Assembly: GCA_050273025.1 (NCBI GenBank)
Contig: CP158635.1
Coordinates: 15,066,001 to 15,130,000 of the forward strand
From: Cenococcum geophilum
Lineage: Eukaryota
Direction of reading: 5' to 3'
DNA: 64,000 nt
Of the stretch, positions 1 to 15,373 are shown in pieces (the stretch's first letter is position 1; each line of letters begins with the position of its first letter). Under the pieces are notes generated by a model. It was not told where the DNA came from, made no database searches, and was given only the letters and a program-made list of their open reading frames with translations. The position numbers and the translations under genes are program-made.

Positions 1-633
1 GCCGGCCTATAACCTCCTTAATAAGGAAAAGAAGTAGCTTCTCTTCCGTAATAGTATTACTATTATAGTACTACTTCCGCTTATAAAAGGCCTAGGAAGA
101 CACGCGTTAGTTATAAGTATACTACTCCGTAAAGCACCTACCTACTTACCTTAAACTCTTTTTACTTTAGCTTCTAATTTAGAGACGTATTTTTAGGTCT
201 CTTAGAATATATAAGGGAAAAGATACTCTACGCGTTAGCGCGTAGTTCGGTATTATTTATAACGTTAATTTTTACGCGACTAATTAATGGCATTTTTAAG
301 ATATATAGGACGCTGCTAGAGAAGCTGCGCCCTAAGGGGGGGTTTTTATTTTCCTATATACGCAGATATAAACTAGGGAGGAGAGGTAGAGAAAATATAC
401 CTATTAAATAAGTAATTTTACCGTATAGGGTAAATAAATGGGCGTACGGCTAGGCCAATAGGCTAATAGTACGCGCGTATTAGCAACTCGATTAGTAGGG
501 GTAAAGATATTTAAAGATGTCCACGGCTTAGCTATAGGCTTAGCTGTAGATATCCGTAAATATTAATAGGGGTTATATATATTATATGCGGCTTAGTAAC
601 TAAGTAGGCGCTTATCTAAGCTATAAACACTAA
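1..633 (-). mobile_element. CryptonF unit 0 (partial: 5' part; continues left of the window), RIP-inactivated
   Basis: 1-905 aligns with 2940-3844 (offset 2939) and 1-633 aligns with ~14655-15286; differences are almost all C>T/G>A. Confidence 0.85.
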
Positions 634-3572
634 TAGTATATCTATAGTTTAATTTATATAGCTAAATCAGCCGCTAAGTTACGATTTGGTAGGTAGAAGG
701 CCTGTACGCTTAGCGCTATATAGATATTACCCTATATCTATAGTCGATCTTTAATCGCTAGCAACGCCGTAGTAATGTTGCGCTCTTAATACCTATTAAG
801 TAGTATACGTAGAGCTGTCTAAGGGCTCTTTACTCGCACTAGGATAGTAAAAATTAGCTATAGATTAATAGAGATATTTATATTTTAGATTAGGCGCCGC
901 TATTATATAAGTACCCTACTAAACTTATACCGCACTAAAATAAGCCCCTAAGGGGCTATAGATAAAGGCTTTAAGAGGACTTCTTAGAAGTTAGATATAT
1001 ATACTATTTTAAAGCTTTTCTACCTACTTAAAGCCGTTTATAAAGCTAATCTAATAAGCACTGCATTTACTTCTACTATTAATTAACCTACTATATAGCC
1101 GCTTCCTCGCTAACCCTCTAGGCCTATATAATCTGCCTAATCTCCTTAATAACCTTAAGCCGTAGGGAGTACTATTAGAGTTTATTCTGCTAGCTAGCCC
1201 ACTATCTACTACCCTATTTAGAATTTAACGCTACTATAAAAGGATTACCTTTAAGCCCTTTAGTCTACTTACGCCAAAGGGCCTATACGGACTTTATTAT
1301 ACGGCATATATAATATATAGGCGGCTACTTAGGCAGCTACTCGGGCTTAGGCCCTTACTATAGCTATAGCTATAGCTATAGCTACGGCGGCGCTAGTAAA
1401 GGGGAAGCTATAGTACTTACCCGGGCCAATATATCCTAGCTTAATTCCGTAATAGATAAAGGCGCTAGTAGATATACCATTAATAGATATACTATTAGTA
1501 AGTATACTATTAAACGCGAATATATAAATGCTAAAGGGACCTTAAGCTAAAAGGTAAGGCTGCTAGATATAAGCAATTAAAGCTATAAAAACTGCGCCTA
1601 CTAGAACTCGGCTATACGGTTAAATAATACTTATAGCTTACGTACTTAGGCGTCTATAGTTTTTAGGCGGTTTATAATAGCTAGTATAGCCTAGTAAAGT
1701 ATTAATAGCTAGCTAGGGCCTTCTTCCTCCTACTATAGGTAGGCTTTAACCTTCCGCGTAAAGGGTAGATAGGCCTTATACTAAAAAACCGGGTGGTTCT
1801 ATATAGGGCTACTTAGGAATATCTTGCGGAGGACTACTAAGTCCTATAGGATAACCTCCTAGAGATAAAATAGGAGGTTTATAGCGCCTATAGCCGCGAG
1901 GTTGTTAACTTAGCTAACTTAAGGGCCAAACTAACCCTTCTAGACGTCTAGCTCTGGCTAGATTGTTAACAGTAGTATATTAGGGGGGGCGACGCTTACC
2001 CTATAAATCTTAAAGCAGCCTATTTACGGTAAATAGCCGGCTATTATTTATATAAACTCCTGCGGTAGCAAGTTTAAATAGTAGCTAACTATCTACTTCT
2101 AGTTTTACCTACTAGCGCGTCTAATCTAGTCCTTACTAACCCCTTTTAACTCCGCTGTCTTAGCGCTAGCGCTTTACCTAATATAGGTTTTCTTTTATAA
2201 GAAGACGCCAATAGCTTAGAATACCTTAGTAACCTACTTCCACTATAAGTTGTATAAAAAGGCCGTCTTATAGTCCCCAGTACTGCTCTTAATTAGGCGG
2301 ATATTATACTACACTAACCGCTTACTAAAGTTTAGGAATAGCTTGTTGCTAAAGTCCTAGTAATATAGGAGGTAGAAAGCTAGCCCGCTAAGCATATAAA
2401 TAAGCGGCTTTTTATTATATAGAGCTCTAATAGTCTTAAGGCAACTATACTAGTTCTACTTACTAGCGCGTATAGTAAATATTAGGGGCATATAGCGCGT
2501 AGGACCTTTCCCTTTAAACTTAAAGGTAAATAGGTTTAAGATCTCGGCGGAGCGCCTATTGCCGCTATAGGTAAGTATATAGTAGCTTAGTAGGATATCT
2601 ATAAGCGTATAAAGGTAGTATTTTAGTAAGAAGTCTCTATAGGCCTATAGCTCGCGGTAGACGCTCTTAAACTTATCCTCTATATATTTATTAAGTAGTA
2701 TATCCCTACCCTATCTATAAACTACTCTTTTTCCTACTACGCGTCCCTCTATTATAGAACCTTTAGGTAATCCCTAATATTATCCTCCCGTAGGGACTAG
2801 TAGTTATTTATCCCTATACCCTTCTACGTCTAATAAAGGTCCGTTAGGGTAGTAATATAGCTATAAACTAAGCGCTAGGAGAGCCGTGTCTTATCCTAGG
2901 GCATATTATTACTAGCCTTACGGCTTTTTACTTTTAGTGGCCGGCCTATAACCTCCTTAATAAGAAAAAAAAGTAGCTTCTTTTCTATAACGGTATTGCT
3001 ATTATAATACTGCTTTCACTTATAAAAGGCCTAGAAAGACACGCGTTAGTTATAAATATACTACTCTATAAAGCACCTACCTACTTACCTTAAACTCTTT
3101 CTACTTTAGCTTATAATTTAGAGACATATTTTTAGGTCTCTTAGAATATATAAGGGTAAGAATACTCTACGTATTAGCGCGTAGTTTAGCATTATTTATA
3201 ACGTTAATCTTTACACAACTAATTAATAGCATTTTTAAGATATATAGGACGCTACTAGAGAAGCTGCGCCCTAAGGGGGGGTTCCTATTTTCCTATATAC
3301 GTAAATATAGACTAGGGAGAAGAGGTAGAGAAAGCATACCTACTAGATAAGTAATTTTACCGTATAGGGTAAATAAACGGGCGCACGGCTGGGCTAATAG
3401 GCTAATAGTATACGCGTATTAGCGACTTAATTAGTAAGGGTAAAGATATTTAAAGATATCCACGGCTTAGCTGTAGGCTTAGCTATAAATATCCGCAAAT
3501 ATTAATAGGGGTTATATATATTATATACGGCTTAGCGACTAAGCGGGCGCTTAGCTAAGCTATAAACACTAA
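634..3572 (-). mobile_element. CryptonF unit 1, complete 2,939-bp tyrosine-recombinase DNA transposon, RIP-inactivated
   Basis: Minus-strand translation after reverting RIP transitions gives KKTHIGRSAGAKTAELKGVSEDQIRRAGRWNQEQMVGCYLNSLPREFMR (~2200-2040; YR/NDC10_II catalytic H-x-x-R, W, Y), an N-terminal RPKNTSLNYEPKQKEF followed by a gtaagt intron, and a C-terminal GCR1_C-like ALWREWTEGLKGNP..ALDSKWGSRWR..YSLRLEVIKEIR (~1310-1130). Confidence 0.85.
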
Positions 3573-3844
3573 TAGTATATCTACGGTTTAATTTATATAG
3601 CTAAATCAGCTATTAAGTCACGATTTAGCAGGTAGGAGGCCTGTACGCTTAGCGCTATATAGATATTACCCTATATCTATAGTTAATCTTTAATCGCCAG
3701 TAACGCCGTAGTAATGTTACGCTCTTAATACCTGTTAAATAGTATACGTAAAGCTATCTAAAGGCTCTTTACTCGCACTAGGATAGTAAGAATTGGCTAT
3801 AGGTTAATAGAGATATTTACGTTTTAGATTAGGCGCCGCTATTA

Positions 3845-14090: not shown

Positions 14091-14230
14091 TAGGCCTAGT
14101 TAGGAAATCAATACACAGCCAGCAGATCGTTAGGAATACCGCTAATTAATAATTTGGAGCCTTTATAAAGGGTATCCCCCTTATCTTAATTGCTTAATAA
14201 ATAGCTCTACATTTTATATAGTTATATAGG

Positions 14231-14322
14231 AATATAAAATATGCAAAATATAAAATGTATAAAATATGCAAAATGTGCAAAATATATAAAATATATAAAA
14301 TATACAAAACGTGTAAAATACA
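14231..14322. repeat. 9-bp tandem repeat AAAAT(A/G)T(A/G)(T/C)
   Basis: Directly visible inside the right subterminal region of the TIR element. Confidence 0.7.
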
Positions 14323-15373
14323 CAGGCTCTGCGCGTTTGCTGCGAGTTGCTATAAAATGCGTAGGCTCTATGCAATTTACTGCAAGTTGCTGCAAAATAC
14401 GCAGGCTCTGTGTAGTTTGCCGCAAAATGCGCAAACCGCACAAGACCATATACGACTGCCGCGACCGTACAGTTTGCCGCAAATTGCCGTAAACTGCAAC
14501 AACGAGCCCGAAAAAAAATTTCCTGATGTATACCCTTCTACGTCTAGTAGAGGTCTATTAGGGCAGTAATATAATTATAAACTAAGCGCTAGGAGAGCCG
14601 CGTCTTATCCTAGGGTATATTATTACTAGCCTTACAGCTTTTTACTTTTAGTAGCTAGCCTATAACCTCCTTAATAAGGAAAAGAAGTAGCTTCTCTTCC
14701 GTAATAGTATTATTATTATAGTACTACTTCTACTTATAAAAGGCCTAGGAAGACGCGCGTTAGTTATAAGTATATTACTCCGTAAAGCACCTACCTACTT
14801 ACCTTAAACTCTTTCTACTTTAGCTTATAATTTAGAGACGTATTTTTAGGTCTCTTAGAATACATAAAGGTAAGGATACTCTACGCGTTAGCGCGTAGTT
14901 CGGCATTATTTATAACGTTAATCTTTACGCGACTAATTAACGGCATTTTTAAGATATGTAGGACGCTGCTAGAGAAGCTGCGCCCTAAGGGGGGGTTTTT
15001 ATTTTCCTATATACGCAGACATAAACCGGGGAGGAGAGGTAGAGAAAGCATACCTACTGGATAAGTAACCTTACCGCATAGGGTAAATAAACGGGCGCAC
15101 GGCTAGGCCAATAGGCCAATAGTACGCGCGCATCAGCAACTCGATTAGTAGGGGTAAAGACATTCGAAGATGTCCACGGCTTGGCTGCAGGCTCGGCCGT
15201 GGACATCCGCGAATGTCGACGGGGGTTGTATGTGTCACGTGCGGCTCAGCGACTGATCGGGCGCTCAGCCGAGCCGTGAACACCAACTATTCTTCGATTC
15301 AATGCTAATTACTCCAACCTCAGTCATCAATCAACCTGTTCCAACCCCAAAGGCAATCACATAATCGCAGCCA

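What the first reader, a model, noticed from the sequence alone, without database searches (positions are those of the whole stretch)
1..15286. Head-to-tail tandem array of at least three CryptonF tyrosine-recombinase transposons
Seen: after removing two nested insertions, the region is a contiguous 2,939-bp unit repeated without spacer (junctions at 633/634 and 3572/3573), ending sharply at 15286. Established: Cryptons encode a tyrosine recombinase, lack TSDs and are thought to move through a circular intermediate. Inference: the array arose by repeated integration of circles into the element's own terminus, or by integration of a multimeric circle. The junctions would then preserve the circle-junction sequence.
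Basis: partly seen in the sequence, partly recalled or inferred. Interest (0 to 1): 0.72.

Follow-up and report, generated by a model that had tools for sequence, protein, structure and literature searches.

The report
Dead tandem Crypton transposon array
At least three mutation-killed copies of a fungal "Crypton" jumping gene sit exactly head to tail, and their joints, compared with related copies elsewhere, pinpoint where the element's own cut-and-rejoin enzyme acts, giving a testable picture of how this known but poorly understood transposon type moves.

Summary
Confirmed. After removing a LINE (3845-9412, 14-bp TSD) and a TIR element (11338-14528, TA TSD), 1-15286 is a spacer-free array of a 2,939-bp unit: one partial and two complete copies, 86-90% identical, nearly all differences RIP-type transitions. 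The unit encodes NDC10_II plus GCR1_C (CryptonF); both complete copies are dead. Metagenomic relatives end at the same bases as solo copies, so this is no arbitrary segmental duplication, and six other loci are arrays with the same joint. The joint is a lox-like site (13-bp imperfect arms, 9-bp spacer). Exchange maps to a TG at one spacer edge. The element's own left end fits the target consensus TGRTRT, so self-insertion is expected. The donor spacer is kept at 10 of 10 tandem joints and 11 of 12 right host ends but 0 of 11 left host ends, which suggests strand-biased exchange (inference). The array predates most RIP. Sequential circle insertion is weakly favoured over a multimer; circles were not observed. 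The scan already noted similar arrays in this genome and another. A known element class with an expected but, in my searches, unreported arrangement.

The parts
1..633 (-). Crypton copy 1, left (5') end only; continues beyond the window edge. ATG at 293, intron donor at 149.
634..3572 (-). Crypton copy 2, complete 2,939-bp unit, RIP-inactivated
   Evidence: aligns end to end with solo relatives L001 and L018
1004..3232 (-). Pseudogene of the CryptonF recombinase in copy 2: ATG 3232, 58-nt intron 3088-3031 (inferred from the L001 sequence and homology to P0023), 1-bp deletion near 2713, stop 1004-1006; NDC10_II and GCR1_C domains
617..651 (-). Tandem joint copy 2/copy 1: RIP-mutated lox-like site (arm 639-651, spacer 630-638, arm 617-629)
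3556..3590 (-). Tandem joint copy 3/copy 2: same lox-like site (arm 3578-3590, spacer 3569-3577, arm 3556-3568)
3573..3844 (-). Crypton copy 3, right (3') end
3845..9412 (-). Nested RIP-mutated LINE-like retrotransposon; 14-bp target-site duplication at 3831-3844 and 9413-9426; TAA-rich tail at the 3845 end
   Evidence: RVT_1 E=4.5e-5, below Pfam's curated cut-off; TSD
9413..11337 (-). Crypton copy 3, middle (most of the recombinase pseudogene; stop at 9525-9527; 1-bp deletion near 11006)
11338..14528 (.). Nested non-autonomous TIR element (TIRs begin CATCAGGAA, TA target-site duplication) holding a 1.9-kb minisatellite of 12-bp units
   Evidence: loose ends at 14528-14530 match both the uninterrupted Crypton and other copies of the TIR element; no Pfam hit in 13400-14528
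14529..15286 (-). Crypton copy 3, left (5') end; ATG 14946; last ~200 bp almost free of RIP
15159..15217 (.). Subterminal inverted repeat (22-nt arms, 91%) that contains two more copies of the arm motif; candidate accessory binding site (inference)
15270..15286 (-). Left host junction (attL-like): arm 15270-15282, shared TG core 15284-15285; host sequence replaces the element's spacer
   Evidence: bridged by contigs of runs X1, X5, X6

Best explanation
This is an array of a CryptonF family built by the element's own tyrosine recombinase (YR) and later killed by repeat-induced point mutation (RIP). The two element ends, joined, form a lox-like site: two imperfect 13-bp inverted arms around a 9-bp spacer (shown as sequence). 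Integration exchanges DNA just after a TG at one edge of the spacer and prefers targets reading TG-R-T-R-T (shown from host junctions). The element's own left end reads TG-G-T-G-T plus a full arm, so any resident copy offers the best available target; a new copy recombining there leaves a head-to-tail joint identical to the circle junction (inferred). The most likely route is copies added one at a time from excised circles (about 0.45); a YR-made multimer or sister-chromatid exchange gives the same joints (about 0.3). After the array formed, RIP mutated the copies largely independently, and a LINE and a TIR element inserted into copy 3.
For: CryptonF domains. 226 of 230 amino-acid differences between copy 2 and the intact relative P0001 over residues 66-628 are reachable by C>T/G>A changes alone. 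Solo relatives end at the same bases, and one contig of run X6 matches 15108-15288 then continues in other sequence, i.e. another copy with the same end. Six further loci (L012, L021, L026, L030, L033, L076) are head-to-tail arrays; all 10 of 10 tandem joints, the window's two included, carry the same spacer. The target motif agrees with the TTGRTA terminal repeat listed for CryptonF-2_CGlo (PMC3212892 supplement 1) and with the donor-terminus/target recombination seen for active CryptonF-1_cRei (PMC9977147 passages). RIP spares host-adjacent ends (left 30 of 399 sites, right 39 of 324) but not internal joints (208 of 602, 151 of 487), so the joints were inside repeated DNA when RIP acted. Copies 2 and 3 share only 14 of 52 cold-site mutations, against 6 of 11 in the L021 pair and 8 of 66 in a cross-locus control, so they were not duplicated after heavy RIP. 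Copy 1 has 3 private transversions in 633 bp against 2 in 5,878 bp for copies 2 and 3 (binomial p=0.008), and copy 3 shares one variant with another locus, L015: weak signs of different ages or donors.
Against: No free circle, intact recombinase or empty target site was observed for this locus (one search showed the insertion already present in the runs laid). The other end of the array lies outside the window and no genome was available. Sequential integration, multimer integration and YR-catalysed unequal sister exchange all predict the same joints. The sign of different donors rests on 5 transversions. Copies 2 and 3 do share more cold-site mutations than independence predicts (14 vs 3.7, p=3e-6); cross-locus controls also show an excess (up to p=0.003) and subfamily substitutions explain part, but some shared history or gene conversion is not excluded. 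The arm symmetry is not universal: the sister subfamily (L009, L041, L054, L076) has a different left arm yet forms the same joint. Nearly all close relatives come from two metagenome assemblies, so they are not independent lineages.
Confidence: 0.78

Rival explanations
1. One event made the array: the recombinase integrated a multimeric circle, or joined the left end on one sister chromatid to the right end on the other, or amplified the element during replication in the manner of Flp on the 2-micron plasmid (recalled analogy).
For: Gives identical joints. Copies 2 and 3 differ by only 2 transversions and 2 one-base deletions. Arrays of 2 to 4 or more copies are common among relatives.
Against: Copy 1 is more diverged at non-RIP sites (p=0.008) and copy 3 carries a variant seen in another locus. 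Low divergence is uninformative because copies in different relative loci also differ by 0-1 transversions in about 2,950 bp.
Confidence: 0.3
2. The recombinase made only the first dimer; host unequal crossing-over or gene conversion between the 2.9-kb repeats added further copies.
For: The L021 dimer shares 6 of 11 cold-site mutations, so doubling or conversion after RIP happens in this family. In unit positions 201-633 no site is mutated in copies 2 and 3 but not in copy 1, a weak sign of non-independence.
Against: Copy 2 vs copy 3 differences are spread evenly along the unit (12-32 per 200 bp outside the host-adjacent end), with no long identical tract; any such event must predate most RIP.
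Confidence: 0.15
3. Ordinary segmental duplication or a mis-assembly, unrelated to the recombinase.
For: Internal joints were not checked with reads.
Against: Unit boundaries coincide with the ends of solo copies in other loci, and the same joint occurs in six independent contigs. Copies differ at about 1 base in 10, so assembly collapse or false duplication is implausible. The host junction is bridged in three runs.
Confidence: 0.02

Closest known systems
CryptonF elements of fungi and oomycetes, closest by terminus CryptonF-2_CGlo of Chaetomium globosum (Kojima and Jurka 2011, PMC3212892: parts 1-2 of 7 of the text, passages and supplement 1 read; Goodwin et al. 2003 not held, known only through citations)
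   Same: YR (NDC10_II) plus GCR1_C in one ORF, about 3 kb, no TIRs, short terminal direct repeat of type TTGRTR (TTGRTA in the supplement). A C. globosum protein (CHGG_10966, P0023) is 43% identical to the read-through of copy 2.
   Different: That paper mentions no tandem arrays of Cryptons (its only 'tandem' is in a reference) and describes no arm/spacer architecture. Here the apparent 6-bp repeat resolves into a 2-3-bp shared core plus a target preference.
CryptonF-1_cRei of Chlamydomonas reinhardtii, the only Crypton seen active (PMC9977147: passages and supplement search read)
   Same: Recombination between a short motif at one terminus (CACCG) and a near-identical target (CAYCG); clean excision yet rising copy number.
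   Different: Different motif and host; no tandem arrays in the passages seen; one supplementary file could not be searched.
Bacterial YR integrative elements that form tandem arrays, e.g. SGI1 (PMC2297512, abstract read)
   Same: Head-to-tail arrays of up to six copies at an att site.
   Different: Prokaryotic, fixed chromosomal attB, conjugative transfer; unrelated element.
[quoted passage not shown]
   Same: Works-like candidate: only one strand is exchanged, so the circle junction always carries the spacer from one fixed end and it is placed at one fixed end on integration.
   Different: Bacterial, needs additional genes, leaves no empty site; no homology tested or claimed.
MarCry-1_FO and Starships (PMC3212892; PMC11162782 passages)
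   Same: YR relatives in fungi; tandem Starship insertions are mentioned.
   Different: This unit has no mariner transposase or TIRs of its own, no DUF3435 captain hit and no cargo.

Membership tests
CryptonF | Single ORF with a tyrosine-recombinase (NDC10_II-type) domain | tested here: met
   NDC10_II E=4.6e-37 in copy 2 and 9.8e-25 in copy 3, stops read as X; E=5.8e-90 in intact relative P0001
CryptonF | C-terminal GCR1_C DNA-binding domain | tested here: met
   E=3.8e-8 in copy 2 (above cut-off); E=0.038 in copy 3 (below cut-off); E=1.1e-19 in P0001
CryptonF | Catalytic R-H-R-Y tetrad | tested here: inconclusive
   R113, K149, H241, R244, W267, Y276 (P0001 numbering; assigned by eye from recalled YR motifs) are invariant or nearly so in 17 intact relatives. 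In window copies 2 and 3, R113, H241, R244 and W267 are destroyed by RIP-type changes; K149 and Y276 remain. Met for the family, not met for these dead copies.
CryptonF | Short (4-6 bp) terminal direct repeat instead of a variable TSD | tested here: met
   Left ends TGGTRT, right host ends mostly TGATRT; TG shared by 11 of 11 left and 10 of 12 right host ends, counting one RIP-type TA on each side for G. The window shows only the left host end.
CryptonF | No terminal inverted repeats, LTRs, reverse transcriptase or DDE transposase of its own | tested here: met
   Only NDC10_II and GCR1_C hits in the three minus-strand frames of the unit (plus-strand frames have 87-110 stops, and were not scanned); self-BLAST shows no long terminal repeats within the unit; only the 13-bp arms are inverted
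CryptonF | Transposition through an excised DNA circle (proposed, not proven, in the literature read) | not testable with these tools
   No active copy or raw reads; no terminal redundancy in the 2-8 kb loci checked
Starship | DUF3435 captain at the 5' end, cargo genes, tens to hundreds of kb | tested here: not met
   No DUF3435 hit, 2.9-kb unit, single ORF
MarCry-type composite (Crypton inside mariner/pogo TIRs) | Terminal TIRs with TA TSD bounding the unit | tested here: not met
   The TA-TSD TIR element here is nested inside copy 3, not around it; the array's far end is outside the window
Strand-biased circularizing elements (SE), works-like only | One-strand exchange shown by PCR/sequencing of circles | tested here: inconclusive
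   Sequence asymmetry fits (donor spacer at 10/10 tandem joints, 11/12 right ends, 0/11 left ends) but biased mismatch repair or a short overlap would look the same

The most novel reading that the evidence does not exclude
CryptonF recombinases act on a lox-like site but exchange only one strand, next to a 2-3-base homology, and leave the Holliday junction for replication to resolve. That would make circles while one daughter chromosome keeps the donor, and the circles would re-enter preferentially at the donor's own ends. It would explain at once the fixed spacer at every joint, the frequent head-to-tail arrays in this family, and the unexplained mix of clean excision and copy-number gain in the active Chlamydomonas Crypton: a eukaryotic counterpart of integron/CTX/SE-type single-strand recombination.
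Probability: 0.3. Interest if true: 0.72.

Novelty: new member of a known kind. Interest (0 to 1): 0.45.

Why it matters
How Cryptons move has been a model since 2003 and copy-number gain is unexplained even in the one active case read here. The joints define a concrete recombination site (arms, spacer, exchange point, target consensus), and intact relatives with all catalytic residues exist (P0001 and others), so the circle model, self-targeting and strand bias can be tested directly. A eukaryotic YR that needs only a TG core plus a loose half-site would also interest genome engineers. The locus itself is dead and the element class is known; the value lies in the mechanism it makes testable.

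Tried and rejected
No whole genome was held, so the far end of the array, the empty site and genome-wide copy ends could not be read. Laying four runs on 14100-18500 gave no empty allele at 15286; X9's contig has only 23 letters on the element side and was not counted as bridging. Summed contig depth over the Crypton end was about 50-500 times that of the unique flank, depending on the run; this is not a copy number and is not used as evidence. My first guess that the unmutated right end was a perfect mirror of the left end (note) was wrong: unmutated right ends read otherwise. One search tallied 7 left and 11 right ends, leaving out L004, L068 and L070 and wrongly counting the L076 tandem joint as a host end; one search repeats the tally with all ends found by alignment and is the one cited. 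Regex-collected right ends of more distant relatives require the spacer and so cannot test the asymmetry; they are not counted. The RIP-explainability count lost frame and was redone. The stratified co-mutation test is confounded by subfamily substitutions (copy 2 vs L001 also gives z=8.8) and was replaced by the cold-site test. No tail-to-head joints or terminal redundancy were found in more distant, unmutated relatives, but most contigs are too short to show both ends. An exact degenerate joint pattern matched only 1 of 80 loci because of RIP. PDB search found only Ndc10 (E=8.5e-5); no structure was predicted. Literature searches (with a guessed host genus; host not identified) returned no paper whose listing describes tandem Crypton arrays; most hits were seen only as listings. 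Goodwin et al. 2003 is not held and Repbase Reports cannot be searched, so prior description is not excluded.
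Full report
Observation. Self-BLAST of the window gives four hits that tile one unit: 1-910 with 2940-3848 (90.3%), 892-2816 with 9413-11337 (89.5%), 2815-3572 with 14529-15286 (86.0%) and 5-633 with 14658-15286 (88.9%). The unit is 634-3572 (2,939 bp). Copy 1 is only its first 633 bases on the gene strand; copy 3 is 3573-15286 with two insertions. Insertion 1 (3845-9412) has a 14-bp target-site duplication and a weak reverse-transcriptase hit (RVT_1 E=4.5e-5, below the curated cut-off). 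Insertion 2 (11338-14528) has terminal inverted repeats, a TA duplication and a 12-bp minisatellite. The joints have no spacer, and similarity ends at 15286. The region has the RIP signature: TpA/ApT about 1.6-2.5 and (CpA+TpG)/(ApC+GpT) 0.18-0.45 in 1-11000; copy 2 vs copy 3 shows 329 transitions and 2 transversions.

Identity. Read on the minus strand with X at stops, copy 2 hits NDC10_II (E=4.6e-37) and GCR1_C (E=3.8e-8); copy 3 hits NDC10_II (9.8e-25) and, below cut-off, GCR1_C. This is the CryptonF architecture of Kojima and Jurka (PMC3212892). A protein search gave 38 relatives, all with both domains, among the 8,000 candidates scored; the best, P0001, is 59% identical, and 226 of its 230 differences from copy 2 over residues 66-628 are reachable by C>T/G>A changes alone. 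In 17 aligned intact relatives the putative catalytic residues R113, K149, H241, R244, W267 and Y276 are invariant or nearly so (assignment from recalled YR motifs). Four of the six are destroyed in copies 2 and 3, each has about 60 stops in the part compared and a one-base deletion. The copies are dead.

Are the unit ends real element ends? A metagenome scan returned 89 relatives, of which the best 80 were kept. L001 and L018 align with the unit essentially end to end, L016 with internal gaps, and all three are flanked by unrelated DNA on both sides. Six loci are themselves head-to-tail arrays: L012, L021, L030, L033 (two or more copies), L026 (four or more) and L076, a sister subfamily with a different left end. 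Seven loci are solo copies with both ends in view (L001, L004, L009, L016, L018, L041, L054). So about half of the informative loci are arrays. Two cautions: arrays are more likely to be picked up, and these loci come from two assemblies, so probably from few host genomes. Contigs of runs X1, X5 and X6 bridge the host junction at 15286, and another X6 contig matches 15108-15288 and then diverges.

The joint. Host-adjacent ends largely escaped RIP, so the original termini can be read directly. The right end (L001 and others) and the left end (window 15270-15282) are 13-bp inverted arms matching at 11 of 13 positions around the 9-bp spacer TACTATTGG (chance about 1e-5 at one register, 7e-4 over 60 registers). 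This resembles loxP/FRT geometry (recalled; YR sites are described as 11-13-bp repeats around 6-8 bp). The arm motif recurs near both ends, including a 22-nt inverted repeat at 15159-15217. Tallying every end found by alignment: spacer positions 1-6 are present at 10 of 10 tandem joints, 11 of 12 right host ends (L068 is the exception) and 0 of 11 left host ends. Positions 7-8 (TG) are shared by both ends; position 9 is element-derived on the left (G in 11 of 11) and host-derived on the right (A 8, G 2, C 2). The exchange point therefore lies between positions 8 and 9. Beyond it the host reads R-T-R-T in most cases (10, 11, 9 and 10 of 12). This is the TTGRTA 'terminal repeat' listed for CryptonF-2_CGlo seen at higher resolution, and it matches the donor-terminus/target recombination reported for active CryptonF-1_cRei (PMC9977147). 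The element's own left end fits the target at all six positions and carries a full arm, so insertion into a resident copy is expected. Against a strict lox model: the sister subfamily has a different left arm but the same core and joint.

Order of events. RIP hit 30 of 399 mutable sites in the first 100 bp of host-adjacent left ends but 208 of 602 at internal left ends; for right ends 39 of 324 against 151 of 487 (sites are not independent, so the p-values overstate). In the window, copy 3's host end has 1 of 66, copies 1 and 2 have 34 of 66 and 31 of 67. The joints were thus inside repeated DNA when RIP acted. At sites unmutated in every unrelated locus, copies 2 and 3 share 14 of 52 mutations (3.7 expected); cross-locus controls reach 8 of 66 and 6 of 31, while the L021 pair shares 6 of 11. 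I read this as largely independent RIP in the window, with some shared history not excluded. Copy 1 has 3 private transversions in 633 bp, copies 2 and 3 together 2 in 5,878 bp (p=0.008), and copy 3's variant at 15257 also occurs in L015. These few sites lean towards copies of different age or donor, with the oldest farthest from the left host end, as expected if new copies enter at the left end. The TIR element is much less RIP-mutated than its surroundings and probably came last (inference).

Mechanism. Shown: element identity, termini, joint sequence, exchange point, target preference, arrays across the family, RIP after array formation. Inferred: that the recombinase made the joints; that circles were the intermediate; that copies were added one at a time. 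With the usual staggered two-strand exchange and a non-matching spacer, either spacer should turn up at either end (as recalled for Tn916-type coupling sequences). Only one outcome is seen, which suggests that one strand is exchanged and replication finishes the job, as shown for bacterial SE elements (PMC9345347 passages). Biased repair or a very short overlap would give the same sequences, so this stays a hypothesis (0.3).

Comparison and novelty. The element is a CryptonF by every feature testable here. Tandem arrays of YR elements are known in bacteria (SGI1, up to six copies; PMC2297512 abstract) and tandem Starship insertions are mentioned in PMC11162782. Searches listed no paper describing tandem Crypton arrays or this arm/spacer site, but Goodwin et al. 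2003 and Repbase could not be read and one supplement of PMC9977147 could not be searched. Earlier unchecked notes of this scan report similar arrays in this genome and in another, and one first-reader note places an inverted duplication of tandem Cryptons just left of this window; I could not test those loci.

Verdict. Observation confirmed, interpretation supported with the route unresolved. New member of a known kind; interest 0.45, because the array is an expected consequence of the standing model yet defines a precise, testable recombination site and a strand-asymmetry that bears on an open question.

Noticed in passing
window 15374-16453 (- strand): Intact 359-aa repeat protein (FG-GAP_3 E=2.3e-7; internal repeats of about 177 bp), unmutated, whose stop codon lies 87 bp from the array's host end. 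A propeller-like lectin fold is a guess.
   Followed up: partly
window 11338-14528: Non-autonomous TIR element with a 1.9-kb minisatellite of 12-bp units that is open in several frames (638-aa H-E-A-L repeat) and little RIP-mutated; further short tandem repeats at 13546-13731 and 13845-14069. Other copies exist in the runs laid.
   Followed up: partly
window 15085-15286 and relatives: RIP fades over about 100-200 bp at host-adjacent repeat ends but not at internal joints; a natural measure of RIP's edge effect that preserves original termini.
   Followed up: yes
window 20480-20708 and 26156-26384: 229-bp direct repeat, 96% identical, about 5.7 kb apart in a RIP-mutated region; probably the LTRs of a retrotransposon.
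   Followed up: no
L021 435-6348: Crypton dimer whose copies differ by only 5.9% and share 6 of 11 cold-site RIP mutations: doubled or converted after RIP.
   Followed up: partly
L002 9098-12209 and L004 2426-5509: Related elements with a rearranged left end that share the same sequence beyond the right terminus; possibly a composite element or two alleles of one site.
   Followed up: no
L012 5794-5815: The host target right of this array closely resembles the element's own left arm, an example of a near-perfect half-site target.
   Followed up: partly
L068 1510-1550: The only right end of 12 that lacks the donor spacer; could be the missing second recombination product or plain decay.
   Followed up: no
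window 1-433 versus its counterparts in copies 2 and 3 (unit positions 201-633): No site is mutated in copies 2 and 3 but not in copy 1, while 11 and 6 sites show the other two-way patterns; unexplained, weak.
   Followed up: partly
window 17641-17786 and 46971-47114: Short inverted match (73%, 152 bp), with high contig depth at 17628-17774; probably a small dispersed repeat.
   Followed up: no
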